Shown here in pieces: positions 501 through 48,031 of a DNA stretch of 48,031 nt; the stretch's first letter is position 1, and each line of letters begins with the position of its first letter. The notes under the pieces are model-generated. The model ran no database searches and was not told the DNA's origin. It worked only from the letters and a program-made list of their open reading frames with translations. Source of the stretch: Fusobacteriaceae bacterium (GTDB lineage Bacteria; Fusobacteriota; Fusobacteriia; Fusobacteriales; Fusobacteriaceae); the NCBI GenBank assembly GCA_031272775.1, contig JAISTB010000031.1:1-48031 (forward strand), in the 5' to 3' direction. The position numbers and the translations under genes were made by a program.

Positions 501-536
501 ATTTTTTTACTATTTTGCAAAGATACACTTTTTTTG

Positions 537-1163: not shown

Positions 1164-1226
1164 TTCTTTAATTTTTGTATTGAAAATAGAAGCGCGGGGT
1201 TTAGCGTTTGCATTAAAGTTGGCTCC

Positions 1227-2016: not shown

Positions 2017-2028
2017 AATTGTTTCGAC

Positions 2029-28224: not shown

Positions 28225-28259
28225 ATACAGGATAAACAACGATTACAGGAGTTGAAAAC

Positions 28260-28311
28260 GTGATTGACAATGAAACCCTGATTTGATGAATCATGGTTTC
28301 ACGTCAATCAC
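28260..28311 (+). promoter_or_regulatory. Inverted-repeat operator/promoter element upstream of the SPFH module
   Basis: GTGATTGACAATGAAACC-N17-GGTTTCACGTCAATCAC (17/18 complementary). The left arm contains the perfect -35 hexamer TTGACA. It lies 30 nt upstream of the SPFH start codon. Confidence 0.4.
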
Positions 28312-28340
28312 ATAAATCATAGTCACAGGAGGAATATCGC

Positions 28341-29690: not shown

Positions 29691-29714
29691 GAATCCCGAT
29701 ACAGAGGTGATGTC

Positions 29715-30794: not shown

Positions 30795-30806
30795 GAGGCG
30801 GAGCAA

Positions 30807-31592
30807 ATGCGAAAACTCAAGATGTGCAAAAAATGTCTTCTTCTCGCGCTGCTGACGCTGCTCTGGACGCTGTGTCTCACGGCCGCCTTACCCAAGGTCG
30901 TCGACGAGGCCGGTCTCCTGAGTTCGCAGGAAGAGCAGCAGCTGGCGCAAATGATAGACAAAGTGATAACAAAGTACAATAAATGTGATGTCGTCGTGGT
31001 CACCGTCAACAATCTGGGCGGCAAGTCGGCCATGGCCTTTGCCGACGACTGGTTTGACTACAAGGGCTACGGCGTGGGGCCGGACAAAAGCGGCGTCCTT
31101 TTCCTCGTCAGCATGGCTGAAAGAGAGTTCTGGATGTCCACGACGGGCTACGGCATCAAGGCCTTCACGGATTGGGGCATCGATCAGATCACGGAAAAAA
31201 TGGTCCCCGACCTCAGCAAGGGCAACTATTATCGGGCCTTTTCGACCTACGTCTCCGAGTGCGACCGCTATCTCGCGGCGGCGGCCAAAGGAAAGCCCGT
31301 CGACAAGGACAACACGTTTATGGCCGGAATCATTTCCCTCGTGGCGGGCCTTCTGGGCGCCTTCGGCGGAACGGCGGGCATGAAGAGCCAGCTCAGGTCC
31401 ATCAAACGGCAAGGCGCCGCCGCCAACTATGTCCAAACCGACAGCCTGAACTTCGCGGCCAAAGACGCCATTTACCTCTTCAGCAACATCACCCGTACGC
31501 CGATCCCCAAAGCAAGCAGCGGAGGCGGAGGCAGCAGCGTCCACACGGGCTCGTCGGGAACGTCCCACGGCGGGCGCGGCGGACGGTTCTGA
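30807..31592 (+). CDS. TPM-domain protein (YdjH-like) with C-terminal TM helix and Gly-rich tail
   Basis: Signal/TM, then PKVVDEAGLLSSQEEQQLAQMIDKV (typical TPM/DUF477 start), TM IISLVAGLLGAFGG, tail SGGGGSSVHTGSSGTSHGGRGGRF. Confidence 0.7.
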   Translation: MRKLKMCKKCLLLALLTLLWTLCLTAALPKVVDEAGLLSSQEEQQLAQMIDKVITKYNKCDVVVVTVNNLGGKSAMAFADDWFDYKGYGVGPDKSGVLFLVSMAEREFWMSTTGYGIKAFTDWGIDQITEKMVPDLSKGNYYRAFSTYVSECDRYLAAAAKGKPVDKDNTFMAGIISLVAGLLGAFGGTAGMKSQLRSIKRQGAAANYVQTDSLNFAAKDAIYLFSNITRTPIPKASSGGGGSSVHTGSSGTSHGGRGGRF

Positions 31593-31599
31593 GAAATTC

Positions 31600-33906
31600 A
31601 TGAAACGCAAAATAAAACTTGTTTTGTATACAATTACGACCGGCGCCCTTTTGGCGACCTGTCTCGCGGGATACGCGGTCTTCCGGATCTATACCGGCTA
31701 CGACGCGGCGGCGCTCCTCGACAGGGTAGAGGCGTCCTACGGCGCGGCGCTCCTGGACCGGGACGACCGCATTCTCTCCGTCGCCCTCGGCGCCGACGAA
31801 CAGTGGCGCGTCAAGAGCGAAGACCCCGTCCCCGAAAACCTGAAGACGGCCGTTTTGACCTACGAGGACAAAAATTTTTACAAACATCCGGGCATAGACG
31901 TCGCGGCCCTGCTCCGGGCCTTCAAAAACAACGTCGCGGGCAGAAGAAAAAGCGGGGCCAGCACGATCACCATGCAGGTCGCCAAGGTGCTCTCGCCCGG
32001 GAAACGGACCTACCGCAACAAAATCCGGGAAATGATCGCGGCCCTGAAGCTGGAACGAAGCCTCTCCAAGGACGAAATCCTCGCCCTCTGGCTGAATAAC
32101 GCCCCCTACGGCGGAAACATCACGGGCTACGCCACGGCGTCCCGCCTGTATTTTGAAAAAAGCCCGGCGGAACTCTCCTGGGGGGAAGCGGCCCTTCTGG
32201 CGGTACTGCCCAATTCCCCGGGACTCATCAATGTGGAGAAAAACCGGGACAGACTCCTCGCCAAGAGAAACGCCCTGTTGTTGCGACTTTCGGAAAAGGG
32301 AGCGCTGCCCCGGGACCAGTACGCGCTGGCCGTCCGGGAACCGCTGCCCCGACAGATCCACCCTTTTCCCCGCCACGCGCCCCATCTCTTGCGGAGGCTT
32401 TCGGGGGAAAGCCGGGAAAAACTCCTTCGCAGTACCATCGACGGCGAACTCCAGCAAAACGTCGAGGCGGTCTGCAAGACCTACGCGGCCTTCATCAGAA
32501 ATGAAGGCGTTGAAAACGTGGCGGTTCTCGTCGTAGAAAACGCGACCCGGGCCGTCCGGGCCTACGCGGGATCTCAGGACTTTCTGGATTTCGACGCTCT
32601 GGGTCAAGTGGACGGCGTCACGGCCAGACGTTCGCCTGGCTCGGTCCTGAAGCCTTTTTTATTCGCCCTCGCCATCGACGCGGGCCTGGTCGCGCCCCAA
32701 TCCCTGGTCCCCGACGTGCCCCTTTATTTTTCGGGCTTCCGGCCGCAAAACGCCAACAAACTCTATAACGGCATGGTGGAAATGCGCCTTGCCCTGATCC
32801 GTTCGCTGAACATCCCCTTTGTCCATCTGCTCGAAGAATACGGATACGAGCGTTTTTATTATTTTTTGAAAAACGTGCTGGGCTTTGCCGAAAGCGACCC
32901 CGACCGCTACGGCCTGTCGCTGATCCTGGGGACAAAGGAAATCTCCATGGAAGACATGGCCGTCCTCTACTCGGGACTGGCGGACCGGGGAAAGTTCAAA
33001 AACCTGCGGTATTTGCGGAACGACGGGAATAAACCGGTCGATCCCGGCAGGCAGCTGATCACGCCGGGGGCCTGCTGGCTCACGCTGCAGACCATGAAGG
33101 CCCTCGTGCGGCCCGGTTTTGAGAATTACTACCGTTGGAAAAACCCCATTTCCTGGAAGACCGGCACGAGCTACGGCAGGCGGGACGGCTGGGCCTGCGG
33201 CGTTACGCCCGAATACACGATTATCTGCTGGGCCGGAAATTTTAGCGGAAAAAGCAGCCCCGACCTCACGGGCGTCGTCTCGGGGGGGCGACTGCTCTTC
33301 AATATTTTCAGTGAGCTGAACCTCAATTACCGCGAGTTTCCGCGGCCGCCGGACCTCGTCGCCATAACGGTCGACGCCCGCACCGGCTACCGGCCGCCCT
33401 GGCCCGGGCTTCCCGCAAAGGAGATCCTCTGGCCCCAAGGGGCCCGGGCCCTCAAGGTCTCGCCCTATTATCGCAAAATTTACGTCAACGCCCAGGGAGA
33501 GGAAATCGACTCCCGGGATCCGGAATTTACCGAGCGCCAGGAGAAAATCATCTTGAATTACCCCCTTGAGGTCGTCAACTACCTGATCCGGGAAAATATC
33601 ACGGCGAGCGGCCTCCAAGATCCGGGCGCAAAAAGCGTCGACAGTCTCCGTATCCTCTATCCCGCCGAGGGAGCGACGATTCTCCTCCCGAGGGACTTTG
33701 ACGGGGACAGGGAGCTCATCGTGAAAATCGCCAATATCAGAGATCAGGACGTCTACTGGTATCTTGACAATACTTTTCTCGGCGTCGACAGAGCCTATGA
33801 AAAACAATTGAGCGTCCCCAACGGCGACCATACGCTGACCGTCATGGGGGAAAACGGGGAAATCCGCAAGGTGAGATTTACCGTAAAAAGAACGGGGGAC
33901 AGATGA
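31600..33906 (+). CDS. pbpC: Penicillin-binding protein 1C (bifunctional glycosyltransferase/transpeptidase)
   Basis: GT51 motifs (TYEDKNFYKHPGID, RKSGASTITMQVAK). SxxK/transpeptidase region. C-terminal PBP1C-specific domain. Classic partner of A2M. Confidence 0.85.
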   Translation: MKRKIKLVLYTITTGALLATCLAGYAVFRIYTGYDAAALLDRVEASYGAALLDRDDRILSVALGADEQWRVKSEDPVPENLKTAVLTYEDKNFYKHPGIDVAALLRAFKNNVAGRRKSGASTITMQVAKVLSPGKRTYRNKIREMIAALKLERSLSKDEILALWLNNAPYGGNITGYATASRLYFEKSPAELSWGEAALLAVLPNSPGLINVEKNRDRLLAKRNALLLRLSEKGALPRDQYALAVREPLPRQIHPFPRHAPHLLRRLSGESREKLLRSTIDGELQQNVEAVCKTYAAFIRNEGVENVAVLVVENATRAVRAYAGSQDFLDFDALGQVDGVTARRSPGSVLKPFLFALAIDAGLVAPQSLVPDVPLYFSGFRPQNANKLYNGMVEMRLALIRSLNIPFVHLLEEYGYERFYYFLKNVLGFAESDPDRYGLSLILGTKEISMEDMAVLYSGLADRGKFKNLRYLRNDGNKPVDPGRQLITPGACWLTLQTMKALVRPGFENYYRWKNPISWKTGTSYGRRDGWACGVTPEYTIICWAGNFSGKSSPDLTGVVSGGRLLFNIFSELNLNYREFPRPPDLVAITVDARTGYRPPWPGLPAKEILWPQGARALKVSPYYRKIYVNAQGEEIDSRDPEFTERQEKIILNYPLEVVNYLIRENITASGLQDPGAKSVDSLRILYPAEGATILLPRDFDGDRELIVKIANIRDQDVYWYLDNTFLGVDRAYEKQLSVPNGDHTLTVMGENGEIRKVRFTVKRTGDR

Positions 33907-38046: not shown

Positions 38047-38123
38047 AACAAAGAGTGATCCCGTAGCTCAATTGGATAGAGCAATTCCCTCCTAAGGAAT
38101 AGGTTGTGTGTTCAAGCCACATC
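38047..38123 (+). tRNA. tRNA-Arg (anticodon CCU)
   Basis: Acceptor GATCCCG/CGGGGTC, D-arm GCTC-AATTGGATA-GAGC, anticodon arm ATTCC-CTCCTAA-GGAAT, T-arm GTGTG-TTCAAGC-CACAT, CCA encoded. Confidence 0.85.
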
Positions 38124-38178
38124 GGGGTCGCCATTTCTTTATCCGCAATTTTTGACTTTACCCTATGAGGAGTGAGCG

Positions 38179-38460
38179 ATGAAAAAAACGCTGTTTTTCT
38201 TTCTGTCTCTTCTGGCTTTGACCGGATGCTCCATGACGCCGGAAAAAGCGGATCGCCGGTATAACGACCTTTCCCACCGCTTTGACCGCCTTGTGGACGA
38301 TCGCTTTCGGGAAAAGGACAGGAAGCGGCTCGAAAAATCCTTCCGCAAACTGGGGAAACGCCTGGACCATCCCAAACGGCCCGAAGACGCCCCCGCCATC
38401 CGGGAAACCCGCAACAAAGTCAACGAAAAAATACAATATCTCGAGGACCTGAAGGATTAA
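38179..38460 (+). CDS. Small lipoprotein, hypothetical
   Basis: Lipobox LLALTGCS, highly charged 93-aa protein, RBS GAGGAG upstream. Confidence 0.5.
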   Translation: MKKTLFFFLSLLALTGCSMTPEKADRRYNDLSHRFDRLVDDRFREKDRKRLEKSFRKLGKRLDHPKRPEDAPAIRETRNKVNEKIQYLEDLKD

Positions 38461-38505
38461 GCCCTCCGGGGAAACCTTCACGATCCGGTTCAAGGAGTCC
38501 GCAAC

Positions 38506-39471
38506 ATGGCTGTTACCGAAGTTTTGGACAATATTTTTTGTATTGAAGTGCCGCTTCCGAAAAATCCTCTGAAGTTTTTAAACGCCTATTTCATCAGGGG
38601 CGGGAAGCGCAATATGCTCATCGATACGGGATTCAACCTCCCGGTCTGCGCGGAAGCCCTCCGCTCAGGGCTCGACGCGCTGGGCGTTTCCATGGCGACG
38701 ACGGATATTTTTCTGACCCACATGCACTCGGACCATACGGGTCTCGTGGACGCCGTAAGGGATCCGGCGGGTATCGTGTGGGCAAGCGAACTCGACGCCG
38801 AAGTGATCCGAATCGCCGGTTCCGAAGGTTTTTGGGATGAATTGGAGCGGCTTTGGAGCAAATTCGGCTTCACGGAAGATTCCCACACCCACCCGGGCAG
38901 GAAATTCGCCGCCGACGGGAAGTTCCCGATGACGATCGTGGCCGAAGGCATGAGCATTTCCGTAGGCGATTACGCCTTTCAAGTGTTGGAAACCCCCGGC
39001 CATACCCGGGGACATCTCTGTCTCTATGAGGCGAAGCGCGGGATCCTTGTGGCCGGCGATACGATTTTGGCCGACATTACCCCGAACATCTCCGTCGGCG
39101 TAAACAATCTCAATCCGCTGGGCGATTATTTCCGGAGCCTTGAGCGGCTGGAAAAATTAACGGTGAACCATACGCTTTCCGCCCACCGGCGGAGACCGGC
39201 CTCGCTCTATGAGCGGATCGCCGAGCTCCGGGTCCATCACCGGCAAAGACTCGACGAGGCCCTTTCCATTGTCCGCGCCTCGGAAGGGATCAGCGCCGCC
39301 GAAGCGGCCGCCCGCATGAGCTGGGACATCACAAGCCGCACCTGGGAGGAATTTCCCCTTTCCCAGAAGTGGTTCGCCATCGGCGAGGCCGCGGCCCATT
39401 TGCAACTGCTCGCGGCCGAAGGGACCGTTAGACGAAGAGAAGAAAACAATGTCTGGATTTATGAAGCTTGA
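38506..39471 (+). CDS. MBL-fold metallo-hydrolase
   Basis: THMHSDHTG motif, downstream His/Asp ligands (TPGHTRGH, VAGDT). Confidence 0.7.
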   Translation: MAVTEVLDNIFCIEVPLPKNPLKFLNAYFIRGGKRNMLIDTGFNLPVCAEALRSGLDALGVSMATTDIFLTHMHSDHTGLVDAVRDPAGIVWASELDAEVIRIAGSEGFWDELERLWSKFGFTEDSHTHPGRKFAADGKFPMTIVAEGMSISVGDYAFQVLETPGHTRGHLCLYEAKRGILVAGDTILADITPNISVGVNNLNPLGDYFRSLERLEKLTVNHTLSAHRRRPASLYERIAELRVHHRQRLDEALSIVRASEGISAAEAAARMSWDITSRTWEEFPLSQKWFAIGEAAAHLQLLAAEGTVRRREENNVWIYEA

Positions 39472-39527
39472 ATGAAAATATAAATAATCGATGTTGTATC
39501 AAATAGGAAAAATAGCATTAACAGAAA

Positions 39528-39561
39528 ACAGGGACTGCCCGGGCAATCCCTGTTATTTTTT
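39528..39561 (+). terminator. Rho-independent (possibly bidirectional) terminator between convergent genes
   Basis: ACAGGGACTGCCCGGGCAATCCCTGT hairpin followed by TATTTTTT. Confidence 0.5.
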
Positions 39562-39651
39562 ATCCGCTTTTTGAATGCCGCAAATATTCGCGGTTTTTCA
39601 CAGATTCTCTTTAGCTAGTTTTTTTATCCGTTTTCCATACCGGCTGAAGTT

Positions 39652-40818
39652 TCAAGCCTTGAACGCCGTGTAGGAGAGCATGAGCCCGCCCGTGGTGTTG
39701 TTCCCGTCGTCTTCGTAGCCGTACTCGCCGAAGGTGAACTCCATCAGGAAAGGAACGCCGCCCGCCGCGCCCTTGACCACGCTCACGAGTTCGCCGATCC
39801 TGTCGCCGATGCCGGCCCTGCGTCCGCCGCAGTGTACGAGATGATAGCCCGCCACGTCGCCCCCCGCCTTGTCCTTGAGGGCCGTCAGCGTCGCGCCCGC
39901 GCTCTGGATCAGCTCGTCGACGCTTCCCGCCATGCGGATGACCGCGGTCTTTTCGGCCAGGTCGGCGCCGATATTCATGGAGTAATCGTCATTGCCGTTC
40001 ATGGGATGACGAATCGCGATGAGATCGCCCAGTCTGTCCTTGACGCCCAGGGGAGAGGTAATCGTATAGACGAGAAGATTGCCGCCCTTGAGGGAATCGG
40101 GGTCGACGCCCGCCCATTTGGCGTATTTTTTGACGGCCGGTTCGCCGTCGATTTCGACGAGGACCCGTTTATCGCGGACTTTGGTGATGATCCCCACGTC
40201 TTCGGTCTCCCGGTAAGCTCCTGTAAAGAGGTTTGTCATGCCGAGCCCCCAGAAAAAGGCCACCGCCACGCCATCCGCGTAAACGCCCGTATCGCCCGTA
40301 CCGAGAACCCATTCGCCGGCGATGGCGTTGTCGGCCGCGCTGCCGCCGAAGAAGGGCTTGCGTCCGATGATGTCCGTAATCCCCTTGAGGTAGGTCTCCT
40401 CTTCGCCCGGGGGCGCGACCATATAGAAGCAGTCGGGGGGCGTATCTTTACCCGCGTTTTTCATTGCGGCCGCGGCCGCTTCCTTGCCCGCCTTCCGGGC
40501 GCACTTGTCTTTCTTGACGCCCGCGATCCCGGCGGTCACTTCATCTCCGCCCACCGCGAGAATCCCTACAAATCCGCTGTCGCCTCCGACGAAGCCCTCG
40601 GGCGTCACCACCCCGGTAAAGGAAGTGTTTCCGACGATGGGAACCCCGGGGAGCGCCTCTTTGACCCCCGCGTAAAGCGCGTTATTGTCATAAGCCACAC
40701 TGGAATAGACAAAAGCCATTTTGGCCTTACCGAGACCGGCCACAGCCTTTTCGGCGGCCTGTTTTCCCGCCGCCTTCGCATCCGTCAGCACGCTTGATCC
40801 GACGCCGCATTTTGCCAT
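39652..40818 (-). CDS. FIST-domain (FIST_N/FIST_C) sensory protein
   Basis: 388 aa, Gly/Ala-rich, with repeated GxxVxxG patterns typical of FIST domains. No output domain. Confidence 0.65.
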   Translation of the reverse strand: MAKCGVGSSVLTDAKAAGKQAAEKAVAGLGKAKMAFVYSSVAYDNNALYAGVKEALPGVPIVGNTSFTGVVTPEGFVGGDSGFVGILAVGGDEVTAGIAGVKKDKCARKAGKEAAAAAMKNAGKDTPPDCFYMVAPPGEEETYLKGITDIIGRKPFFGGSAADNAIAGEWVLGTGDTGVYADGVAVAFFWGLGMTNLFTGAYRETEDVGIITKVRDKRVLVEIDGEPAVKKYAKWAGVDPDSLKGGNLLVYTITSPLGVKDRLGDLIAIRHPMNGNDDYSMNIGADLAEKTAVIRMAGSVDELIQSAGATLTALKDKAGGDVAGYHLVHCGGRRAGIGDRIGELVSVVKGAAGGVPFLMEFTFGEYGYEDDGNNTTGGLMLSYTAFKA

Positions 40819-40927
40819 AATCTTTACCTCCTCCTATTATCAAAATGTTTTTGCTCTACTTTGATTATACCTCATTTTTGCGAGAAAGCAAGGGGCATTT
40901 TCGGTTTTGTTCGGGGCGGGAGGAGCG

Positions 40928-41689
40928 CTATCGTTTGGGTAAAAATCGGAATGTCTTTGTAAACCAGACTTTGATGTTACGGTTTTGATAATACACCGGA
41001 CGGAACTTCCACCGGCGGAGCGCCGCGGTCACTTCGTCGTCAAATCCGAGTCCCTTGTTTCCTGAAAGAATCAGAATCTGCTCCACATTCCCGGACAAAC
41101 CGACCAGAAATTTCGCCGTGACGGAAACCGTTCCGGAAATACGCATTTGCTCGGCTCTCGCCGGATAAGCCGGCTCATGCTGACGCAGGATTTGATAGGC
41201 GATGCCTTCGGGAGAATGCGCGACGGGAATCCCGTCCTGTCCCACGCTGATATTCCGGTTTCCCGAAAAACCCGCTTCCGTGGGCGGCGCGGGGCGCTTT
41301 TTTTCCGGAACGCGCTTCCGCGTTTTGTTCTCGGTTAATTTGGGCTCCGGTTTCCGCTCGGGTTTGACTTTGCTTGGCTCAGGCCGTGGCTCGGGTTCAG
41401 GCTTCGGCTTGGGTTCAGACTGTGGTTCGGGTTCAGGTATCGGCTCGGGTTCAGGCTGCGGCTCAGGTTCAGGTATCGGCTCGGGTTCAAGTCGCGGCTC
41501 GGGTTCAGGTATCGGCCCGGGCGCCGCAAGGGGTTCCATAACAGCCTCCGATCCGGGATCTTCCACGGCTTCTCGAAGCGTCACGGGAATCCGGTCCGGT
41601 TTTTCCGCGTGTATCCGAAAATATTCCGGTATTCCCGGACGCAGAAACAAAAGCGCGTGAACCAACAATGAGATCAGGATGTATTTCAT
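40928..41689 (-). CDS. tonB: TonB-family energy transducer with proline-rich (EPEP) spacer
   Basis: N-terminal TM helix, (PEPEPx)n linker, C-terminal TonB domain. Confidence 0.7.
   Translation of the reverse strand: MKYILISLLVHALLFLRPGIPEYFRIHAEKPDRIPVTLREAVEDPGSEAVMEPLAAPGPIPEPEPRLEPEPIPEPEPQPEPEPIPEPEPQSEPKPKPEPEPRPEPSKVKPERKPEPKLTENKTRKRVPEKKRPAPPTEAGFSGNRNISVGQDGIPVAHSPEGIAYQILRQHEPAYPARAEQMRISGTVSVTAKFLVGLSGNVEQILILSGNKGLGFDDEVTAALRRWKFRPVYYQNRNIKVWFTKTFRFLPKR
41384..41520 (-). repeat. Imperfect ~18/36-bp tandem repeats encoding the EPEP linker of TonB
   Basis: ggttcaggtatcggctcgggttcaggctgcggctca repeated with minor variation. Confidence 0.6.
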
Positions 41690-41710
41690 AAAAAATCCCT
41701 CCGGAGAAGC

Positions 41711-41838
41711 TTATTTTTGCACGGTCAGGGAAAGCGAAGGAAAAAGGCGGCGCGCTCGAGGATTACGGCGAGCGCGACGACAGACAGGACAAGCAGTACC
41801 CACATCAGATTTCCGCCCGCTTTGATATAATAAAGCAT
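41711..41838 (-). pseudogene. ExbB/TolQ/MotA-like N-terminal fragment (37 codons), probable remnant of exbB upstream of tonB
   Basis: Minus-strand ORF MLYYIKAGGNLMWVLLVLSVVALAVILERAAFFLRFP*. The GG..M...LL.S..ALAxxxER pattern matches ExbB/TolQ helix-1. No exbD is present. Confidence 0.3.
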
Positions 41839-42150
41839 TCTTTCCTCCTTATCGAAAGGACTCCCGGTATGGTCAGGATAGTTTTTTCATTTTAACCCTG
41901 ATGTTCTCCGGAAACGTTGCATCAGTTCGGAAAAATAGGTTTTCGCGTTCTTTTCATCATCTATTTTTTTGTGTTGCCTGTCAATGTAGAATACGCAATC
42001 AGTACTTTCAACGATCAATTCCTCCTGTTTCTGTTTTGACTTTCAAAATAAATGTCAATCTATTTGCATTATATCAAAAATATTTCTTTTGTCAAATAAT
42101 TTTTTGTTTAAAATTCGCTATTACTGACTTTGCGGGAAAAAATTATTTTC

Positions 42151-42179
42151 TTGACAACGCAGCGCAAAAATATTATAAT
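42151..42179 (+). promoter_or_regulatory. Consensus sigma70 promoter (TTGACA-17-TATAAT) for the haem-uptake locus
   Basis: Exact consensus -35 and -10 hexamers with 17-nt spacer, about 145 nt upstream of the radical-SAM gene start. Confidence 0.55.
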
Positions 42180-42182
42180 AAC

Positions 42183-42218
42183 TGATATGATAATTAATTT
42201 GATTTTATGATTATTTAA
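42183..42218 (+). promoter_or_regulatory. AT-rich Fur-box-like operator candidate overlapping/downstream of the -10
   Basis: TGATATGATAATTAATTTGATTTTATGATTATTTAATA contains GATAAT/ATGATTAT half-site-like hexamers. The location fits iron/haem regulation. Confidence 0.3.
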
Positions 42219-42323
42219 TAAATAAAATATTTATCAATAAAATTATTTGGTTTTTTCTTTTACAGCGCAGAAATAGTGAATTCTTGTCTGTTTCATACCG
42301 ATAAGGGAGGCGGAATACAGAAC

Positions 42324-43174
42324 ATGGACAACATATTGACACTGTGGCCCAAACGGTTGAAATCACATCATGACGCGGCAAGTCTTGTCGAAAAATATCA
42401 AAAAGCGGAAAAAGCGACGGAAGCGGATTTTTCAGCGAAACTGGAAGAACGACCGGAAAATAACCCAAAGGCCATGTATGTGCATGTTCCGTGGTGCGAC
42501 CGGATTTGTTCCTTTTGCAATATGAACCGGAAGCAGGCTGACGCCGCGTTGACAGCGTATCCGGCCCGGCTTGCGGCCGAATTGGAAAAATACGGAAAAA
42601 CCAGATACTTGCGGGAAAGCCGTTTTGAAGCGATCTTTTTTGGAGGCGGGACGCCGACTGTTCTTTCGACGGAGCAACTTGCGACGGTTTTGTCCGCTTT
42701 GCGCAAAAATGTACATCTGGCGGAGGATTGCGAATTTACTTTCGAAAGTACGCTGCACAACCTGCAGGAAGATAAAATCGGACTTCTCACGCAATACGGC
42801 GTCAACCGGATCAGCGTCGGGATTCAGACATTTTCCGAAAGAGGTCGGCAATTCTATAACCGGACGTACAACCGTCAGCAGGCCCTCGACAAACTGAGGA
42901 CATTGCAAAAGCTCTTTCACGGGGATGTCTGTGTGGATATCATTTATAACTTTCCGGGCTCATGCAGTTTCCGGAATTTTCAAAAAGCCGGATCGAAACG
43001 CTTCTGACAGAGGAGGAATCCGTCGTCTACCGGAAAAAGATGAAACAGTATCAGAACGCGGGGCTTCTCAAAGAGAGTAAAACTTCCTATGATCTGACTT
43101 CCGCCGGTGTATTCTGGGGGAACAATCTGATCGTTGATACGATTACGGAAATTTTGGAAAAGACATTGAAATGA
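42324..43174 (+). pseudogene. HemN/HemW/HutW-family radical SAM protein, short and frameshifted (frame switch near 42950-42961)
   Basis: Start MDNILTLW after an AAGGGAGG RBS. CxxxCxxC motif CDRICSFC. GGGTPT. Frame 1 stops at 43007. The HemN_C-like tail (…NAGLLKESKTSYDLTSAGVFWGNNLIVD…) continues in another frame (42962..43174), which opens immediately after a TAA. Confidence 0.55.
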
Positions 43175-43195
43175 CTGCGACAGAAGGAGAGGGAC

Positions 43196-45319
43196 ATGCG
43201 TTCTAAAGAATTGTTGATTTTAAGTGTTATCTTGTGTGGGATGGCTTACGGAAGCCAAAATGTGGAACTTGAGGACAGCGTTATCTACTCGACCACCGGA
43301 TTTGCGGAAAGCGTCCGGGATGAAGCGAGTACCCCGGTGATCATCACAAAGCGGGAAATAGAAGAAAAACGCTATAAAACCGCCATTGAAGCCCTGAAAG
43401 ACGTTCCGTCCGTCAATGTGCAGTACCAGATGGGAATGCCTGTCATCGATATGCGGGGTCAGGGAATGAAAGCGAAGGACAATGTGCAGGTTCTCATCGA
43501 CGGCGTTCCGGTAAATTCCCTGGAGACTTCCATGGTCGCCAGCGTCATCAATACAATTTCGGTGGACAGTATCGAGCGCATTGAAGTCATTCCGGGCGGC
43601 GGCGCGGTTCTGTACGGCAGCGGGACCTCAGGAGGGGTCGTAAACATCATCACGAAAAAAGGAACCGGATCGCGGGCATCCGCCGGATACAGTTACGGCG
43701 ACGTTCTCGGCGGCAAAGCCGATGTTTCGGCCGGATATACCTTTGCCGACCGCCTTGATTTGGATCTGGCCTATACGAAAAATAACATCAAAGGATACCG
43801 GGATTACAGCCGGGACGAATCGGATTATTTCCTCGGAAGTCTGCGGTACAGGATATCGGAGGATCAGCGCATCAGCCTGAAATACACCAAATACAAAAAT
43901 GAGATGCAGTACCCGGGTTCGCTGACCGATGTCCAACTCAGAGAAGACAGAAGACAAAGTTCGCTGTATCCCGGAGAGGAATATCTGATTTTGTCGGATA
44001 AAGACGAAATTATGCTTGATTATCAAAACAAGCTGAGCGATAAACTGGAATTGAACCTCCTGGGGTTTTCTCAAAAAATTGAAATCACGATGAAGGATAA
44101 CTATAAAATACCCGGGGAGTCCTTTGATATGGAAGCGCACTTTGACACAAAAAAGAACGGGCTCAAGGCCAAATTAAAGTATACTTATACGGAAAAAGGA
44201 GCCCTGATTTTCGGTGTGGATTATATAGACGACAAGCTTGACAGAACCATGGAACAGCTGATAAAGGGCGTCACAACGGTAGGACCTATGGTTGTCGCCA
44301 ATGATGTCTTCACCGATACGGAGATCTATCTGAAAAAAAAGACCTGGAGCGCTTTTCTGCTCAACACGATTCGAGTCAATGATTTTGAATTGATCCAGGG
44401 CGTCCGTTATGAAAAGGCGAGATATCATATTGATCGCTCGTCGATGTCCCATGTCCACGTGGAAGGCAGAATGGGGCCGATGATTATACCCATGGCGGAT
44501 ACGACAAGCCTCTATCCGATTGTCGCAAAACGCGATGAAGACAACTTTGCGTTGGAGCTGGCCGCCAATTATCTCTATTCGGAAACCGGAAAACTGTATT
44601 TGAAGTATGAACGTGGATTTTCCTCTCCCGCGCCCGCTTTGCTGACAGATCGCGATGCCACGCCGTCTTACGGCGGAAGCGGAAATTATTTCCTGAACGA
44701 TCTGAAATCGGAAACATTCAACACGGTGGAATTGGGATTCAAGGACTATTTCGGACCGACAACCCTCACCGCGGCAGTCTTTTATACGTTGACGAACGAC
44801 GAGATCCGCTCTTCCGGAATGAGCAGAACTTCGCGCATCGTCAATTACAATCTTGCCAAAACGGAACGTTTCGGCTTTGAAATTTCGGCGGAACAACGGG
44901 TGAACCGGTTCACATTCCGGGAAACCTATCATTTCGTGAACGCGAAAATCAAAGACGGGATCGACGGTTATTCCGGACTGGATGTTTCCGGAAAGAGAAT
45001 TGCCCTCGTTCCGCAGCATAAATTTTCCGTCGGCGCCAATGTCCGGATTCTTCCGAACCTGAGTCTGGACGCGGACGTTGTCTATGCGGGCAATTATTAT
45101 CTGAACGACGGCAATACCGGCGGAAAGAAAAACAAGCGCCTGCTTGTGAATTCGCGAATCAATTGGGAACCTAAGACAGGCCTTGTCGTCTATGCCGGCG
45201 TGAACAATCTCTTTGATGAAAAATATTCCAATTCCGTGGATTACGATCCGGCCGGCGGGTATTCATATGATCCCGCCTACGGCAGAAACTGGTATGTGGG
45301 ATTCAAATATCAGTTCTGA
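43196..45319 (+). CDS. TonB-dependent outer membrane receptor (haem/siderophore type)
   Basis: Signal peptide, plug domain, 22-strand-like barrel, terminal ...NWYVGFKYQF. Confidence 0.9.
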   Translation: MRSKELLILSVILCGMAYGSQNVELEDSVIYSTTGFAESVRDEASTPVIITKREIEEKRYKTAIEALKDVPSVNVQYQMGMPVIDMRGQGMKAKDNVQVLIDGVPVNSLETSMVASVINTISVDSIERIEVIPGGGAVLYGSGTSGGVVNIITKKGTGSRASAGYSYGDVLGGKADVSAGYTFADRLDLDLAYTKNNIKGYRDYSRDESDYFLGSLRYRISEDQRISLKYTKYKNEMQYPGSLTDVQLREDRRQSSLYPGEEYLILSDKDEIMLDYQNKLSDKLELNLLGFSQKIEITMKDNYKIPGESFDMEAHFDTKKNGLKAKLKYTYTEKGALIFGVDYIDDKLDRTMEQLIKGVTTVGPMVVANDVFTDTEIYLKKKTWSAFLLNTIRVNDFELIQGVRYEKARYHIDRSSMSHVHVEGRMGPMIIPMADTTSLYPIVAKRDEDNFALELAANYLYSETGKLYLKYERGFSSPAPALLTDRDATPSYGGSGNYFLNDLKSETFNTVELGFKDYFGPTTLTAAVFYTLTNDEIRSSGMSRTSRIVNYNLAKTERFGFEISAEQRVNRFTFRETYHFVNAKIKDGIDGYSGLDVSGKRIALVPQHKFSVGANVRILPNLSLDADVVYAGNYYLNDGNTGGKKNKRLLVNSRINWEPKTGLVVYAGVNNLFDEKYSNSVDYDPAGGYSYDPAYGRNWYVGFKYQF

Positions 45320-45344
45320 TCCCTTGCCTTTCGATTGAGGATTT

Positions 45345-46314
45345 ATGAAAAAACACGTCTCAAAATTATTACTGGTATTGCTGCTTGTCACGGGAATCCT
45401 GGCCATCCCCTCGGGCCCGGTTCCCGTTCCCTTAGGGGATCTGCTTGGGGGAAGGCCTCTCCCGGACCACATACGGACCATCTTGCTGCAATTGCGCATC
45501 CCGCGTATTCTGATGGCCGTCATCGTGGGGATGATGCTCGCCTCCGGCGGCGCCGTGGTTCAGACCGTTTTTCAAAACCCCCTGGCGGATCCCTATATTA
45601 TCGGCATTTCCGCAAGCGCCACGTTCGGAGCGGTCCTTGCCTACCTCCTTCATATGCCGGACGCGATGTACGGAGTTTTTGCCTTCGTATGCTGCCTTGG
45701 GAGCACATTCATCGTTTTTGGAATCTCCCGCCGGGGAAAGGGCCTGCCCGTCACGACTCTCCTGATCGTCGGAATTGCGCTTTCTTCATTTTTGGGCGCG
45801 TTTACTTCGTTTTCCATGCTTCTCATCGGCCAGGATTCCTTCCGGATTACGATGTGGATGATGGGATACCTGGGAAACGCCAGCTGGTCCCGGGTCGGTT
45901 TTCTTACGGTTCCGCTTTTGCTGTCCGTTTTCTATTTCTGGATGGAACGCCACCATTTGGACGCTCTTTTGTCCGGAGATGAAGAGGCGCATGCTCTGGG
46001 CGTGGATGTCCGCAAACTTAAGATCCCGTCTGCTGACTGTCGTTGCGCTCGTTGTTGCGTTTTCGGTTGCGTTTACGGGCATGATCAGCTTTGTGGGCCT
46101 GATCGTCCCGCATATCGTAAAGACCATAATGGGTTCTTCCCATGCCGCATCGTTGCCGGTCGTGATCCTTGGCGGCGGCTGGTTCCTGCTCGTGTGTGAT
46201 CTGTTTGGGCGTTGCGCCTTTGCGCCTGTTGAAATCCCAATCGGGGTCGTCACCGGTTTTTTGGGCGCGCCTTTTTTCCTGTATCTTGCCTTCAGAAAAA
46301 AAGGAGTGCGGTAA
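45345..46314 (+). pseudogene. hmuU: FecCD/HmuU-family iron-complex ABC permease, split by a +1 frameshift in a CCC run near 46013-46015
   Basis: Frame A (45345..) reads ...HALGVDVRKLKI then nonsense. Frame B (45979..46314) reads ...RLLTVVALVVAFSVAFTGMISFVGLIVPHIV. Removing one C from aagatcccgtctg gives KLKIRLLTVVALV. Confidence 0.7.
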
Positions 46315-46316
46315 CG

Positions 46317-47108
46317 ATGCCTGCCATTGTCGTCAAAAATTTGAATTTTTCGTATGAAAATAAAAAGATTCTGGACGGGATCAGTTTTGCGGTCCCCAGA
46401 GGGAAACTGACCGGGATTCTGGGCCCCAACGGCTGTGGCAAATCGACGCTCCTGCAGAATATACTGGGTTTTTTGAATGAAAAATCCGAAGCGGTCGAAG
46501 TTTTGGGAAAACCGCGTACGAGCTACACCGCGGCGGAACTTGCGAAAAAGATGGCTTTCGTACCGCAAAAATCAAGGCTCAACGCGAATCTTTGCCTGTA
46601 TGAGTTTGCCCTTCTCGGCCGAATTCCACACATGAAAAGCATTTTTTACGGATATTCCCGGGAAGACCATCGAATCACGGAATACGTCCTGCGGACCCTT
46701 CACCTGTCGGAGATGAAGGAAAGGATGACCATGACGCTTTCCGGCGGGGAATTTCAGATGCTTCTTCTGGCAAGGGCGCTCGTGCAGGATCCGGAAATTC
46801 TTCTGCTTGACGAGCCGACGGCGGCGCTTGATCTCAATCACGCGATTTCTCTGATGAGACGCTTAAACGCCGAGATACGGTCCCGGGACCTGAGCGCGTG
46901 CATCGTTTTGCATGATTTGAATCTTGCCGCTCTTTTTTGCGACGGACTCATTCTGATGCACCATGGAAAAGTTTATCGCAGCGGCGCGCCGGAGAGCGTA
47001 CTGACGCCGGAGAATCTCAAGGCGGTCTACGGGCTTTCCTGCGTCGTGACAGCGCTTCCGAACGGAAAGCCGTATATCATACCGAATATCGAAGAAAAAA
47101 TTGATTGA
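46317..47108 (+). CDS. hmuV: Iron-complex/haemin ABC transporter ATP-binding protein (HmuV/FecE-like)
   Basis: GPNGCGKSTLL, LSGGEFQMLLLARAL, LLLDEPTAALD. Confidence 0.85.
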   Translation: MPAIVVKNLNFSYENKKILDGISFAVPRGKLTGILGPNGCGKSTLLQNILGFLNEKSEAVEVLGKPRTSYTAAELAKKMAFVPQKSRLNANLCLYEFALLGRIPHMKSIFYGYSREDHRITEYVLRTLHLSEMKERMTMTLSGGEFQMLLLARALVQDPEILLLDEPTAALDLNHAISLMRRLNAEIRSRDLSACIVLHDLNLAALFCDGLILMHHGKVYRSGAPESVLTPENLKAVYGLSCVVTALPNGKPYIIPNIEEKID

Positions 47109-47126
47109 AGAAAAGGAGAAAGAGAG

Positions 47127-48017
47127 TTGAAGAAAAAAATTTTGGCGGCGCTCTTTTGCGTTGTTTTCTACCGGATGCTGCCGGGTATGCAGATATCGGA
47201 CGGAAAAATCATGGATCATACCAATACAAGCATAGAGGCGAGACGCTACAATCGCGTCGTCGTTTTGGATCCCGCCGTCACGGAAACGCTCTATGAGATA
47301 GGCGGAGAGGATATCATCGCGGCAGTGGCCAATACGACAATGAGTAAAATCTGGCCGGAGGAGAAGGTGAAAGAACTGCCCAGTGTCGGAACACTCACAA
47401 AACCAAGCATAGAAAAAATTCTGTCCTTCGGGCCCGATCTGGTTATTGTAAACGGTATGGCGACCGGCGTCCGCGACAGAATTCGGGAATTTGGGATTCC
47501 CGTTCTTGTGTGGGAGGCAAACAGCCTTGCCGATATCCTGGACAATATCAGGGCGCTGGGGATCATCAGCGGGCGGGAAGAAAAAGCGGAAAAGCTTTAT
47601 CAGGAAAGTCTCGGTAAAATAGAACGGCTCCGCGCAAAAAGCGCCAAAGAGAAAAAACTGAGAGGCGCGCTTCTGATTTCCGTCCAGCCGCTTATGGTTT
47701 TTCCGAAAGGGACGCTTCCGAATGAAATTCTGGAATTGCTGGGCGTGGATTCTCTCGGAAAGGAACTTCTTGGAATGCGGCCCATTGTTTCCGCCGAAAT
47801 GCTCCTGACATTTGATCCGGACTTTATCGCGGGCGCCATGAGTATAGCCGATGTCGACAGCATCCGGAACGGAAACGAAGCGATAAAAAAAACCCGGGCC
47901 TACCGGAACAATCGGATTTTTATTGTGGATTCCGCGAAAATTCTGCGCGGATCTCCGAGAATTTTTGAAGCGATCGAAGCCTTTGAAAATGAGTTGGAGG
48001 CCATCCGGCCGTTGTGA
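47127..48017 (+). CDS. hmuT: Periplasmic binding protein (HmuT/BtuF cluster, PBP type III)
   Basis: TTG start after AAGGAGAAAGAGAG. Signal peptide. VVVLDPAVTETLYEIGGEDIIAAV and LVIVN motifs typical of class III substrate-binding proteins. Confidence 0.75.
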   Translation: MKKKILAALFCVVFYRMLPGMQISDGKIMDHTNTSIEARRYNRVVVLDPAVTETLYEIGGEDIIAAVANTTMSKIWPEEKVKELPSVGTLTKPSIEKILSFGPDLVIVNGMATGVRDRIREFGIPVLVWEANSLADILDNIRALGIISGREEKAEKLYQESLGKIERLRAKSAKEKKLRGALLISVQPLMVFPKGTLPNEILELLGVDSLGKELLGMRPIVSAEMLLTFDPDFIAGAMSIADVDSIRNGNEAIKKTRAYRNNRIFIVDSAKILRGSPRIFEAIEAFENELEAIRPL

Positions 48018-48031
48018 GCTATCTTTTGGCC

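What the first reader, a model, noticed from the sequence alone, without database searches (positions are those of the whole stretch)
41711..47108. TonB-dependent haem-type uptake locus showing coordinated gene decay (exbB remnant, frameshifted radical-SAM gene, frameshifted hmuU)
The locus is tonB (minus strand) with only a 37-codon ExbB-like stub upstream and no exbD. A HemN/HutW/ChuW-family radical SAM gene then sits in two frames (catalytic CxxxCxxC domain to 43007, HemN_C-like tail in another frame to 43174). Even when joined it is only about 280 aa. The TonB-dependent receptor is intact. hmuU is broken by one extra C in a CCC run (46013-46015), while hmuV and hmuT are intact. Three independent lesions in one functional unit, with long ORFs elsewhere in the window intact, suggest relaxed selection on haem/iron acquisition through this route rather than random sequencing error. 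Homopolymer errors cannot be excluded.
Basis: partly seen in the sequence, partly recalled or inferred. Interest (0 to 1): 0.55.

Follow-up and report, generated by a model that had tools for sequence, protein, structure and literature searches.

The report
Decaying copy of haem-uptake gene cluster
One copy of a haem import and haem breakdown gene cluster in an uncultured Fusobacteriaceae genome has been disabled by several real deletions and a one-base insertion, while a near-identical intact version of its left half occurs in a JGI metagenome and, by indirect evidence, in the same sequencing run; this is ordinary gene decay, unusually well documented.

Summary
Two Fusobacteriaceae relatives (L002, L004) show a 10-gene ancestral cluster: tonB-exbD-exbB-DUF454-flavodoxin, divergent from hutW-TBDR-hmuU-hmuV-hmuT. 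In the window six of these ten genes are dead.

- **exbB/exbD:** a 900-bp deletion leaves 34 exbB codons and 8 exbD codons.
- **Flavodoxin and DUF454:** the flavodoxin survives as two tiny relics and DUF454 is gone.
- **hutW:** it lost 415 bp between 11-nt direct repeats.
- **hmuU:** it carries one extra C at 46025-46027, not 46013-46015.

The lesions were defined against 92-97% identical contigs. L163 has intact exbB, exbD and hutW, and L165 has CC where the window has CCC. An independent Logan assembly reproduces the hmuU frameshift. The deletion junctions share too little sequence for an assembler misjoin.

The other ~36 genes on the contig are intact apart from one hsdM remnant. tonB, the receptor, hmuV, hmuT and both consensus promoters survive.

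Two Logan contig ends suggest that the intact version is in the same read set. Whether it lies in the same genome is unresolved. The cluster is a low-GC3 island whose similarity to the second copy stops at the tonB stop codon.

This is ordinary relaxed-selection decay of one copy of a known locus type.

The parts
40928..41689 (-). tonB, intact (253 aa). It has an N-terminal SxxxH anchor motif, a Pro-rich spacer and a TonB_C domain.
   Evidence: Pfam TonB_C 52 bits and TIGR01352. There are no nonsynonymous differences from L163 or L164 over 108 codons.
41376..41555 (.). 18-nt tandem repeats encoding the (E/K)P-rich TonB spacer. They probably explain why the related contigs L163 and L164 break inside tonB.
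   Evidence: the repeat finder family D1. L163 ends at window-equivalent 41587 and L164 starts at 41152.
41711..41736 (-). exbD 3' relic: the last 8 codons (LSLTVQK) plus the stop codon.
   Evidence: Alignment to L163 ExbD, which ends ...PTLSLTVQK*.
41736..41737 (.). Junction of the 900-bp deletion that removed exbB codons 35-202 and exbD codons 1 to about 121. Microhomology is 0-4 nt.
   Evidence: blastn and junction alignment of L163 against the window.
41725..41838 (-). exbB stub ORF of 37 codons. Codons 1-34 (41737-41838) are genuine ExbB. The last 3 codons and the stop are out-of-frame exbD tail.
   Evidence: tblastn to L002, L004 and L163 ExbB. Codon view. No MotA_ExbB domain remains.
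41839..41886 (.). 48-bp spacer at the position where L002 and L004 carry a 120-126-aa DUF454 (YbaN-like) gene. The gene is absent here and also in L163.
   Evidence: Synteny with L002 and L004. The same spacing is seen in L163.
41887..42014 (-). Relic of a HmuF/FldH-type flavodoxin gene. Codons 1-16 lie at 42011-41964 and the last ~21 codons plus stop at 41973-41887, in a different frame. The original ATG is now TTG. In L163 the same relic is in frame, and the window has one fewer A in the junction A-run.
   Evidence: tblastn of the L002 flavodoxin, residues 1-16 (87.5% identity) and 148-168. Codon views. The L002 protein matches Pfam Flavodoxin_3 at 176 bits and FldH (PDB 8G64) at E = 3e-22.
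42068..42095 (-). Perfect sigma-70-type promoter (TTGACA-16-TATAAT with an extended TG) facing the flavodoxin relic, exbB stub and tonB.
   Evidence: 12/12 consensus match. The hexamers are conserved in L163.
42151..42179 (+). Perfect sigma-70-type promoter (TTGACA-17-TATAAT) facing hutW, the receptor and hmuUVT.
   Evidence: 12/12 consensus match. Conserved in L163.
42324..42958 (+). hutW/hmuW 5' part: codons 1-211, including the CxxxCxxC radical SAM motif. It reads on out of frame to a stop at 43007.
   Evidence: Pfam Radical_SAM, and TIGR04107 positions 18-205. 94.8% nucleotide identity to intact L163 hutW.
42948..42958 (+). Junction of the 415-bp hutW deletion: the single remaining copy of the 11-nt direct repeat AACTTTCCGGG. 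The intact allele has AACTTCCCGGG and AACTTTCCGGG, with 404 nt between them.
   Evidence: Junction alignment. Logan contig L001 begins exactly at 42948.
42950..43174 (+). hutW 3' part: the last 74 codons, in another frame.
   Evidence: TIGR04107 positions 366-414 and a weak HemN_C match. Aligns to P0121 from its LSGLMQFPEF segment to the C-terminus.
43196..45319 (+). TonB-dependent receptor (HmuR-like), intact at 707 aa, with a signal peptide, plug, barrel and C-terminal Phe.
   Evidence: Pfam Plug and TonB_dep_Rec_b-barrel. Full-length alignment to the L002 and L004 receptors. dN/dS 0.12-0.16 against L165 and L166.
45345..46314 (+). hmuU (FecCD-type permease), broken by a +1 insertion. The repaired reading gives 322 aa.
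   Evidence: FecCD positions 1-221 and 219-311 lie in two frames. The repaired protein is 67% identical to L002 HmuU. No NCBI accession falls between the receptor (MDR1832544) and hmuV (MDR1832545), so NCBI probably did not annotate it as an intact gene.
46025..46027 (+). CCC run holding the extra C. The 97% identical relative L165 has CC and reads in frame.
   Evidence: Indel-aware alignment of L165 against the window. The same CCC is present in Logan contig L001.
46317..47108 (+). hmuV (ABC ATPase), intact, with Walker A, signature, Walker B and H-loop all present.
   Evidence: Pfam ABC_tran. NF010068 haem ABC ATPase scores 220.5 bits against a cut-off of 261. dN/dS 0.13.
47127..48017 (+). 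hmuT (periplasmic binding protein), intact. The contig ends 14 nt after its stop codon.
   Evidence: Pfam Peripla_BP_2. Logan contig L162 ends at the same base, 48031.

Best explanation
Window 40928-48017 is a degenerating copy of the Fusobacterium-type hmu cluster. That cluster encodes TonB-dependent haem import plus anaerobic haem breakdown by a HutW/ChuW/HmuW-class radical SAM enzyme and a HmuF-type flavodoxin.

Shown:
- The ancestral unit had ten genes: tonB-exbD-exbB-DUF454-flavodoxin, divergent from hutW-receptor-hmuU-hmuV-hmuT.
- This copy has lost six of them through at least five separate mutations.

Inferred order of events:
1. An old internal deletion of the flavodoxin gene, plus loss of DUF454. 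Both are shared with the nearest relative, which still has intact hutW.
2. A 415-bp deletion in hutW between 11-nt direct repeats, the signature of replication slippage or microhomology-mediated deletion.
3. A 900-bp deletion fusing exbB codon 34 to the tail of exbD.
4. A very recent +1 slippage in a C run in hmuU.

Inferred consequences: this copy can no longer energise its receptor from its own ExbBD, move substrate across the inner membrane through its own permease, or open the haem ring. It is therefore non-functional as a unit and is under relaxed selection. tonB, the receptor, hmuV, hmuT and both promoters are still intact, either because the decay is young or because some of them are still used.

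The cluster is compositionally foreign to the contig, and a 92-97% identical version with intact exbB, exbD and hutW exists, with indirect evidence that it is in the same read set. The likeliest reason for relaxed selection is that this copy is dispensable: a redundant or horizontally acquired cassette, or a loss-of-function variant that coexists with an intact one.
For: - Ancestral architecture: it is the same in L002 (a MAG) and L004 (the isolate Fusobacterium sp. PH5-44). It also matches the published F. ulcerans/varium-type arrangement, in which hmuF is divergent from hmuW (PMC10404700).
- Lesions defined against near-identical contigs: L163 and L165.
- Sizes add up: 415 + 900 + about 730 bp of deletions account for the 2,054-bp length difference between the L002 and window loci.
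- Reproducibility: the hmuU frameshift is present in the independent Logan assembly.
- Concentration of damage: Fisher p = 1.4e-4, after a Pfam survey of the rest of the contig found full-length genes.
- Relaxed constraint on hutW: nonsynonymous to synonymous differences are 21:20, against 21:61 for the other locus genes (p = 0.008). Eleven replacements are derived in the window and 6 in the intact allele. Several window-derived changes hit invariant outgroup positions (F87L, I122V, M156T, E376K), and none of the changes derived in the intact allele does.
- Recent hmuU lesion: dN/dS is 0-0.09 on both sides of the frameshift.
- Neutral spacer: the flavodoxin-relic region is 89.5% identical between the two versions, close to the synonymous divergence of 0.06-0.13.
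- Compositional island: GC3 is 0.56-0.66 in the locus against 0.70-0.80 in core genes.
- Extent of similarity to the second copy: it stops at the tonB stop codon.
- Co-occurrence in SRR14710912 (indirect): Logan contig ends at 40979 and 42948 fall exactly at the boundaries of sequence blocks shared by the two versions.
Against: - No reads were inspected. The deletion junctions themselves are seen only in the one MAG contig, because Logan contigs stop at or before them.
- Low dN/dS in tonB, the receptor and hmuV could mean that they still function, so 'non-functional as a unit' is an inference.
- Only 48 kb of the genome is visible. Another ExbBD or TolQR pair, another FecCD permease or a FldH paralogue elsewhere could complement some of the lesions.
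- The 11 against 6 polarity count is not significant on its own (binomial p = 0.33).
- The substrate is assigned from context. The hemin-receptor, haem ABC ATPase and HutW NCBIfam models all score below their curated cut-offs.
Confidence: 0.85

Rival explanations
1. Redundant paralogue. The same genome carries two copies of the cassette. Copy B (contigs L163 and L164, next to a BigA-like giant gene) stays intact, and copy A (this window) is the duplicate being lost.
For: - Similarity between A and B is limited to the cassette. It stops at the tonB stop codon on one side, and on the other the contig and a Logan contig both end 14 nt after hmuT.
- L164's partial TonB has NCBI accession MDR1834580, under the same organism name as the window's MDR18325xx proteins.
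- Of 13 window proteins looked up, none outside TonB and an SPFH protein has a second variant of at least 90% identity carrying an NCBI accession or a JGI product name. This argues against a second closely related strain in that assembly.
- The Logan contig ends imply that B-type sequence is in the same run.
Against: - Logan contig L001 is 100% copy A over 3.6 kb. With two equally covered copies about 3% apart, a mosaic would be expected.
- No B-type receptor, hmuU, hmuV or hmuT appears in any 90% cluster.
- The accession gap of about 2,000 proteins could equally mean two consecutive MAGs.
- Membership of the same MAG was not verified.
Confidence: 0.3
2. Loss-of-function variant in a mixed population, or a cassette shared by horizontal transfer. 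A and B sit in different co-occurring genomes, either strains or distinct Fusobacteriaceae lineages. The window's lineage has lost haem use, or is losing a recently acquired cassette it does not need.
For: - Pure-A Logan contigs suggest unequal abundance of the two versions.
- L163 is a short 3-kb contig.
- Contigs about 97% identical to the window occur in two other JGI metagenomes (L165, L166), so this divergence is typical between populations.
- The locus has a lower GC3 than the host genes.
- RecJ's nearest relative is only 59% identical, whereas the cassette copies are 92-97% identical. This is compatible with recent transfer of the cassette between distant lineages.
Against: - No second set of core-gene variants from the same assembly was found.
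- The flanks differ immediately at the cassette boundary, which is not expected for simple allelic strains.
Confidence: 0.5
3. Assembly or sequencing artefact. The frameshift is a homopolymer error and the deletions are misjoins, so the real locus is intact.
For: - This is a MAG contig and no reads were available.
- The intact version exists in related data.
- Logan contigs break at the hutW junction rather than crossing it.
Against: - The junction homologies (0-4 nt and 11 nt) are far below any assembler k-mer.
- A and B differ by 4-10% around the junctions. The deleted contig is therefore not a collapsed version of the intact one.
- The frameshift is identical in two assemblers and sits in a run of only 3 C.
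- The window allele of hutW carries extra derived replacements, as expected of a real pseudogene.
Confidence: 0.04
4. Functional remodelling rather than decay. The surviving tonB, receptor, hmuV and hmuT, driven by intact promoters, still work with an ExbBD pair and a permease encoded elsewhere.
For: - Both promoters are perfect 12/12 matches and are conserved in L163.
- tonB has no nonsynonymous changes, and the receptor and hmuV have dN/dS 0.12-0.16.
- All five lesion events fall in the half of the ancestral locus that excludes these four genes (p about 0.03 under uniform targeting).
Against: - The frameshifted hmuU shows equally low dN/dS, so low dN/dS here reflects youth of the lesions, not current function.
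- No substitute permease or ExbBD is present in the 48 kb.
- hmuV has an excess of lineage-specific replacements compared with L002, using L004 as the third sequence (46 against 16, p = 1.4e-4).
Confidence: 0.15

Closest known systems
Fusobacterium hmu haem uptake and utilisation locus (hmuTRUV with hmuW and hmuF). The F. ulcerans/F. varium variant has hmuF divergent from hmuW (McGregor et al. 2023, PMC10404700).
   Same: - The gene set and orientation match those in the relatives L002 and L004.
- Proteins are 45-67% identical to those of L002 and L004.
- The flavodoxin of L002 matches FldH, PDB 8G64.
- The radical SAM gene matches HutW/ChuW best of all NCBIfam models.
   Different: - Six of ten genes are deleted or broken in the window.
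- A DUF454 gene belongs to the ancestral unit here.
- The host is a deep-branching Fusobacteriaceae lineage with much higher GC than its Fusobacterium relatives appear to have. Core genes have GC3 0.70-0.80, and RecJ is only 46-59% identical to other family members.
- No biochemical data exist for this lineage.
[quoted passage not shown]
   Same: The match runs along the full length of the model, positions 19-414 of 419 in the intact allele P0121. The CxxxCxxC motif is present.
   Different: - Scores are 235 bits for the intact allele and 164 + 23 bits for the window fragments, against a curated cut-off of 400. Equivalog membership is therefore not met.
- The window gene lacks residues corresponding to about 212-349 of the intact protein.
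Pseudogene formation and deletional erosion of dispensable or newly acquired genes in bacteria (general principle, from my own knowledge of the reductive-evolution literature; not checked in papers here).
   Same: - Deletions greatly outweigh insertions.
- One deletion lies between short direct repeats, and one lesion is a homopolymer slip.
- The lesions have different ages, and the locus is compositionally atypical.
   Different: The rest of the contig is not decaying, so this is decay of one locus, not genome-wide reduction. A near-identical intact counterpart was recovered, which gives exact breakpoints.

Membership tests
hmu-type haem uptake and anaerobic haem degradation locus | TonB-dependent outer-membrane haem receptor (HmuR) | tested here: inconclusive
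   The Plug and barrel domains are complete. TIGR01785, the hemin receptor subfamily, is the best NCBIfam hit but scores 153 bits against a cut-off of 316.85. The siderophore model scores 148 bits. The haem assignment rests on gene context.
hmu-type haem uptake and anaerobic haem degradation locus | HmuTUV ABC importer (binding protein, FecCD permease, ATPase) | tested here: not met
   HmuT and HmuV are intact. The HmuU permease is split by a +1 frameshift at 46025-46027. The haem ATPase model NF010068 scores 220.5 bits, below its cut-off of 261.
hmu-type haem uptake and anaerobic haem degradation locus | Full-length HmuW/ChuW/HutW radical SAM methyltransferase | tested here: not met
   The window gene lacks 415 bp and changes frame. 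Even the intact allele P0121 scores 234.9 bits against the TIGR04107 cut-off of 400.
hmu-type haem uptake and anaerobic haem degradation locus | HmuF/FldH-type flavodoxin next to hmuW | tested here: not met
   Only codons 1-16 and the last ~21 codons remain. The gene is present and full-length in L002 and L004.
hmu-type haem uptake and anaerobic haem degradation locus | Conserved gene order with Fusobacterium loci | tested here: met
   The order and orientation match L002 and L004 gene for gene. They also match the arrangement described for F. ulcerans and F. varium (PMC10404700).
Ton energy-transduction system (TonB-ExbB-ExbD) | TonB with membrane anchor, Pro-rich spacer and C-terminal domain | tested here: met
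   TonB_C and TIGR01352 match. The SLLVH motif and the EP/KP repeats are visible in the sequence.
Ton energy-transduction system (TonB-ExbB-ExbD) | ExbB with a MotA_ExbB channel domain, and ExbD | tested here: not met
   Only 34 ExbB codons and 8 ExbD codons remain and no domain is detected. Both proteins are intact in L163, at 202 and 129 aa. Copies elsewhere in the genome could not be tested.
Bacterial pseudogene or decaying locus | Disabling lesions relative to a closely related intact orthologue | tested here: met
   Two deletions were defined against L163 and one insertion against L165, both at 92-97% identity.
Bacterial pseudogene or decaying locus | Lesions are not assembly or sequencing artefacts | tested here: inconclusive
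   The hmuU frameshift is reproduced by the Logan assembly. The junction homologies are too short for a misjoin. Read-level confirmation was not possible with these tools.
Bacterial pseudogene or decaying locus | Signature of relaxed constraint in the remnants | tested here: inconclusive
   The hutW nonsynonymous to synonymous count is raised (p = 0.008) and derived changes favour the window allele 11 to 6, which is not significant alone. hmuU shows no relaxation.
Programmed frameshift or phase-variable switch (considered for hmuU) | A long homopolymer or known slippery motif with a stimulatory element, conserved in relatives | tested here: not met
   The run is only CCC. The zero frame continues 58 codons past the run before its stop at 46197-46199. 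Relatives L165 and L002 read straight through in frame.
Cobalamin (btuBFCD-type) uptake locus (considered because the HmuU halves score best against BtuC models) | Cobalamin riboswitch in the leader | tested here: not met
   An Rfam gathering-threshold scan of the whole window found only two tRNAs.

The most novel reading that the evidence does not exclude
The hmu cluster is a mobile cassette that moved recently between co-resident Fusobacteriaceae lineages, and its decay here is ordered and partly adaptive. After the HmuF-type flavodoxin was lost, HutW activity would release reactive anaerobilin. HmuF is reported to traffic haem to HmuW and to reduce anaerobilin, which the authors suggest lowers its toxicity (PMC10404700). 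Selection then favoured knocking out haem ring-opening (hutW), the energy supply (exbBD) and finally import (hmuU). This would be a 'toxic intermediate' domino loss, caught while the intact and decayed versions still coexist in one sample.
Probability: 0.1. Interest if true: 0.5.

Novelty: new member of a known kind. Interest (0 to 1): 0.22.

Why it matters
For annotation, the 227-aa 'radical SAM protein' (MDR1832543) and the receptor and ABC genes of this MAG should not be counted as a working haem-utilisation pathway. The flavodoxin, exbB and exbD relics are currently invisible to gene callers.

Biologically, this is a clean natural example of stepwise loss of a nutrient-uptake cassette. The breakpoints are exact, one deletion is repeat-mediated, and an intact counterpart appears to be present in the same read set. 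It offers a small test case for whether haem-catabolism cassettes in anaerobes are exchanged and discarded as units. It does not reveal a new mechanism or system.

Tried and rejected
- **Fur box.** An E. coli-type Fur box in the divergent promoter region gave no match at up to 3 mismatches. The best 13/19 match is within the range of shuffled sequence. No claim about iron regulation is made.
- **Cobalamin riboswitch.** None found.
- **Programmed frameshift or phase variation in hmuU.** Rejected (see the membership test).
- **Closer receptor relatives.** Searches of genome and metagenome collections found nothing above 58% and 49% identity. The near-identical relatives came only from the 90% cluster look-ups.
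- **Relative-rate tests against L002 and L004.** The three lineages are almost equidistant and the GC shift confounds the result. Only hmuV, the receptor and the exbB stub show an excess of window-specific changes, and hmuU shows none. This says little about the timing of the lesions.
- **ExbB homology beyond codon 37.** An apparent 'NKL' match proved spurious once L163 showed that this stretch is the exbD tail.
- **Exact-protein look-ups.** TonB, the exbB stub, HutW-227 and hmuV returned nothing. The JGI metagenome that holds the window contig could not be identified.
- **Source environment.** Literature searches for the sample identifiers returned nothing, so the environment is unknown.
- **GC3 of the L164 flank.** The values (0.53-0.71) do not discriminate between the same-genome and other-genome models.

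Full report
**Source of the window.** The window is a whole 48,031-bp contig of an NCBI MAG labelled 'Fusobacteriaceae bacterium'. Its RecJ is only 46-59% identical to other Fusobacteriaceae RecJ proteins. Its core genes have GC3 of 0.70-0.80. It therefore comes from a deep-branching, high-GC member of the family.

**Checking the observation.**
- tonB is intact at 40928-41689 on the minus strand.
- A 37-codon ExbB-like ORF lies at 41725-41838, and there is no exbD.
- A radical SAM gene best matches the ChuW/HutW model TIGR04107, as two pieces in different frames (profile positions 18-205 and 366-414 of 419).
- A 707-aa TonB-dependent receptor is intact.
- A FecCD permease is split into profile positions 1-221 and 219-311.
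- The ABC ATPase and the periplasmic binding protein are intact.
- One coordinate is wrong. The CCC run that carries the extra base is at 46025-46027, not 46013-46015.

**Ancestral state.** A scan of reference genomes with the receptor protein found two syntenic relatives. These are L002 (Fusobacteriaceae MAG Pq454_bin26) and L004 (the isolate Fusobacterium sp. PH5-44). Both carry exbD, exbB, a DUF454 gene and a Flavodoxin_3-family flavodoxin on one strand, with tonB downstream of exbD in L002. The L004 locus is cut off before that position. On the other strand both carry hutW (422-430 aa), the receptor, hmuU (321-323 aa), hmuV and hmuT. The L002 flavodoxin matches the haem-binding flavodoxin FldH of F. 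nucleatum (PDB 8G64, E = 3e-22). This is the arrangement published for F. ulcerans and F. varium, where hmuF is transcribed divergently from hmuW. HmuW degrades haem anaerobically to anaerobilin, and HmuF delivers haem to it and reduces the product (PMC10404700).

- The flavodoxin gene survives only as codons 1-16 (42011-41964) and the last ~21 codons (41973-41911), in different frames.
- The DUF454 gene is replaced by a 48-bp spacer.

**Near-identical relatives and exact breakpoints.** The 90%-identity cluster of the truncated HutW contains an intact 421-aa protein, P0121. Its contig L163 (JGI metagenome 3300042602, 2,968 bp) encodes the first 34 codons of tonB, then exbD (129 aa) and exbB (202 aa), all on one strand. 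hutW lies on the other strand. At the DNA level L163 aligns to the window in three blocks of 92-97% identity. These blocks define two deletions in the window.
- **900-bp deletion.** It joins exbB codon 34 to the last eight codons of exbD. The junction is at 41736/41737, with 0-4 nt of microhomology.
- **415-bp deletion in hutW.** It lies between two 11-nt direct repeats (AACTTCCCGGG and AACTTTCCGGG in the intact allele). One copy is left at 42948-42958, and the reading frame shifts.

L163 has the same flavodoxin relic and the same missing DUF454. That loss therefore predates the split between the two versions.

A second relative, L165 (JGI 3300005083, 97% identical), has CC where the window has CCC and reads in frame. 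The deletions sum to about 2,045 bp, which matches the 2,054-bp length difference between the L002 locus and the window locus.

**Are the lesions real?**
- A Logan assembly of run SRR14710912 yields a 3,588-bp contig identical to window 42948-46535, including the CCC.
- The deletion junctions share far less sequence than any assembler k-mer.
- The two versions differ by 4-10% around the junctions, so the deleted contig is not a collapsed form of the intact one.
- NCBI issued no protein accession between the receptor (MDR1832544) and hmuV (MDR1832545). This suggests the annotation pipeline did not call hmuU as an intact gene.
- Read-level confirmation was not possible with these tools.

**Is the decay specific to the locus?** A Pfam survey of the other ~36 genes found full-length domain matches throughout. 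These include a 1,715-aa alpha-2-macroglobulin, PBP1C, RecJ and two MacB-type systems. The only other remnant is an hsdM N-terminal fragment in a low-GC island at the contig start. Six of ten against one of about 36 gives Fisher p = 1.4e-4.

**Selection and timing.** Nei-Gojobori comparisons with the 92-97% identical relatives gave the following.

| Region | Result |
|---|---|
| tonB | no nonsynonymous changes |
| receptor | dN/dS 0.12-0.16 |
| hmuV | dN/dS 0.13 |
| hmuU (frameshifted) | dN/dS 0.00-0.09 |
| hutW, two fragments | dN/dS 0.25 and 0.47 |

- The hmuU lesion is therefore very recent.
- The nonsynonymous to synonymous count in hutW (21:20) is higher than in the rest of the locus (21:61; p = 0.008).
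- Polarising with seven outgroup HutW sequences, 11 replacements are derived in the window allele and 6 in the intact allele. Window-derived changes hit positions invariant in all seven outgroups (F87L, I122V, M156T, E376K), and no change derived in the intact allele does.
- The spacer holding the flavodoxin relic is 89.5% identical between the two versions, close to the synonymous divergence.
- The inferred order is flavodoxin and DUF454 first, then hutW, then hmuU. The position of exbBD in this order is unknown.

**What survives.** Both divergent promoters are perfect 12/12 sigma-70 consensus matches and are conserved in L163. All five lesion events fall in the half of the ancestral locus that excludes tonB, the receptor, hmuV and hmuT (p about 0.03 under uniform targeting). 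This is weak evidence that some of these genes are still useful. The low dN/dS of the broken hmuU shows that such values cannot prove current function.

**The second copy.** L164 (JGI 3300042602, 26,030 bp) begins inside the tonB C-terminal domain. It is 97.3% identical to the window down to the tonB stop codon and then continues into a 3,040-aa BigA-like gene instead of the window's FIST gene. Its partial TonB has an NCBI accession (MDR1834580) under the same organism name as the window's proteins.

Two Logan contig ends from SRR14710912 fall exactly where the two versions start or stop sharing sequence.
- L168 ends at 40979, 30 nt after the A/B mismatch at 40949.
- L001 starts at 42948, the first base of the 38-nt block shared at the hutW deletion.

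With a k = 31 graph (the k value is from my own knowledge of Logan), these are the expected branch points if both versions are in that read set. The window contig and Logan contig L162 both end at 48031, 14 nt after hmuT. This may be the other edge of the shared cassette.

The cassette also has a lower GC3 (0.56-0.66) than the host genes. It therefore behaves as a discrete unit, either duplicated or transferred.

**Same genome or not?** This is unresolved.
- For a paralogue in the same genome: similarity is limited to the cassette. In addition, none of the other core proteins looked up has a second variant with an NCBI accession or a JGI product name.
- For a separate genome: the Logan contig is pure copy A over 3.6 kb. 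No B-type receptor-to-hmuT genes were found. The accession gap of about 2,000 proteins could mean two MAGs.

**Checks that led nowhere.** There is no convincing Fur box and no cobalamin riboswitch. Collection scans found no closer relatives. Relative-rate tests against L002 and L004 were uninformative. No literature was found on the sample identifiers.

**Verdict.** Two qualifications apply. This is one decaying copy of a known Fusobacterium-type haem cassette. An intact counterpart appears to coexist with it, so loss of haem use by the organism is not established. The phenomenon is ordinary. Its value lies in correcting the annotation and in the unusually exact reconstruction of the lesions.

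Noticed in passing
window 1-2105: A low-GC island (GC 40-45%, GC3 0.43-0.50) lies next to a tRNA gene (2032-2105, minus strand). It holds an hsdM N-terminal remnant (189-500, HsdM_N profile positions 1-87 of 135 only), followed by an unrelated P-loop ORF that runs off the contig start. It also holds a Fic/HTH protein (537-1163) and a HepT/MNT toxin-antitoxin pair (1227-1839). It looks like an integrated mobile element with its own decay.
   Followed up: partly
window 2216-5740 (-); L164 237-9359: A 1,174-aa ORF has no Pfam match. It shares 68% nucleotide identity over 327 nt with the 3,040-aa BigA-like gene that flanks the second tonB copy in L164. These may be related surface proteins.
   Followed up: no
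L168 (= window 38107-40979), L001 (= 42948-46535), L162 (= 46821-48031): Logan contigs of SRR14710912 end exactly at the boundaries of sequence shared between the window and the intact-copy contigs L163 and L164 (at 40979 and 42948) and at the contig end 48031. L168 also differs from the window at three positions (39413, 39600, 39682). This implies microdiversity, or that the MAG was assembled from a different library.
   Followed up: partly
L163 ~1200-1330 versus window 41887-42014: In L163 the flavodoxin relic is an in-frame mini-ORF of about 41 codons, with residues 1-16 fused to the last ~25. The window has one fewer A in the junction A-run, which puts the two halves out of frame. A second 1-nt difference lies in a T-run at 41882.
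   Followed up: partly
window 40928-48031 versus the rest: The haem locus genes have GC3 of 0.56-0.66, against 0.70-0.80 for the neighbouring core genes. The AT-rich divergent promoter region (42019-42323) has 25% GC. This suggests a horizontally acquired cassette that is only partly ameliorated.
   Followed up: partly
window 18959-20017 (-): A DUF4325 (STAS-like) gene forms a separate low-GC islet (GC 0.40, GC3 0.44) among high-GC core genes.
   Followed up: no
window 23077-33906: A bacterial alpha-2-macroglobulin (1,715 aa) lies a few genes upstream of PBP1C (768 aa). An SPFH protein, a zinc-ribbon protein and a TPM-domain protein sit between them. All appear intact.
   Followed up: no
window 28341-29690 (+): The SPFH protein has a variant of at least 90% identity (451 aa, MDR1834232) on a 38.5-kb contig under the same NCBI organism name. 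The neighbouring TPM and PBP1C proteins have no such variant. This may be a second duplicated or shared segment.
   Followed up: no
window 14472-16910 (-): The homology search with RecJ returned no hit at or above 90% identity (best 59%). However, the exact sequence is in the collection (P0376), in a cluster whose representative is a 159-aa fragment. This is a quirk of cluster representatives, not a feature of the gene.
   Followed up: yes
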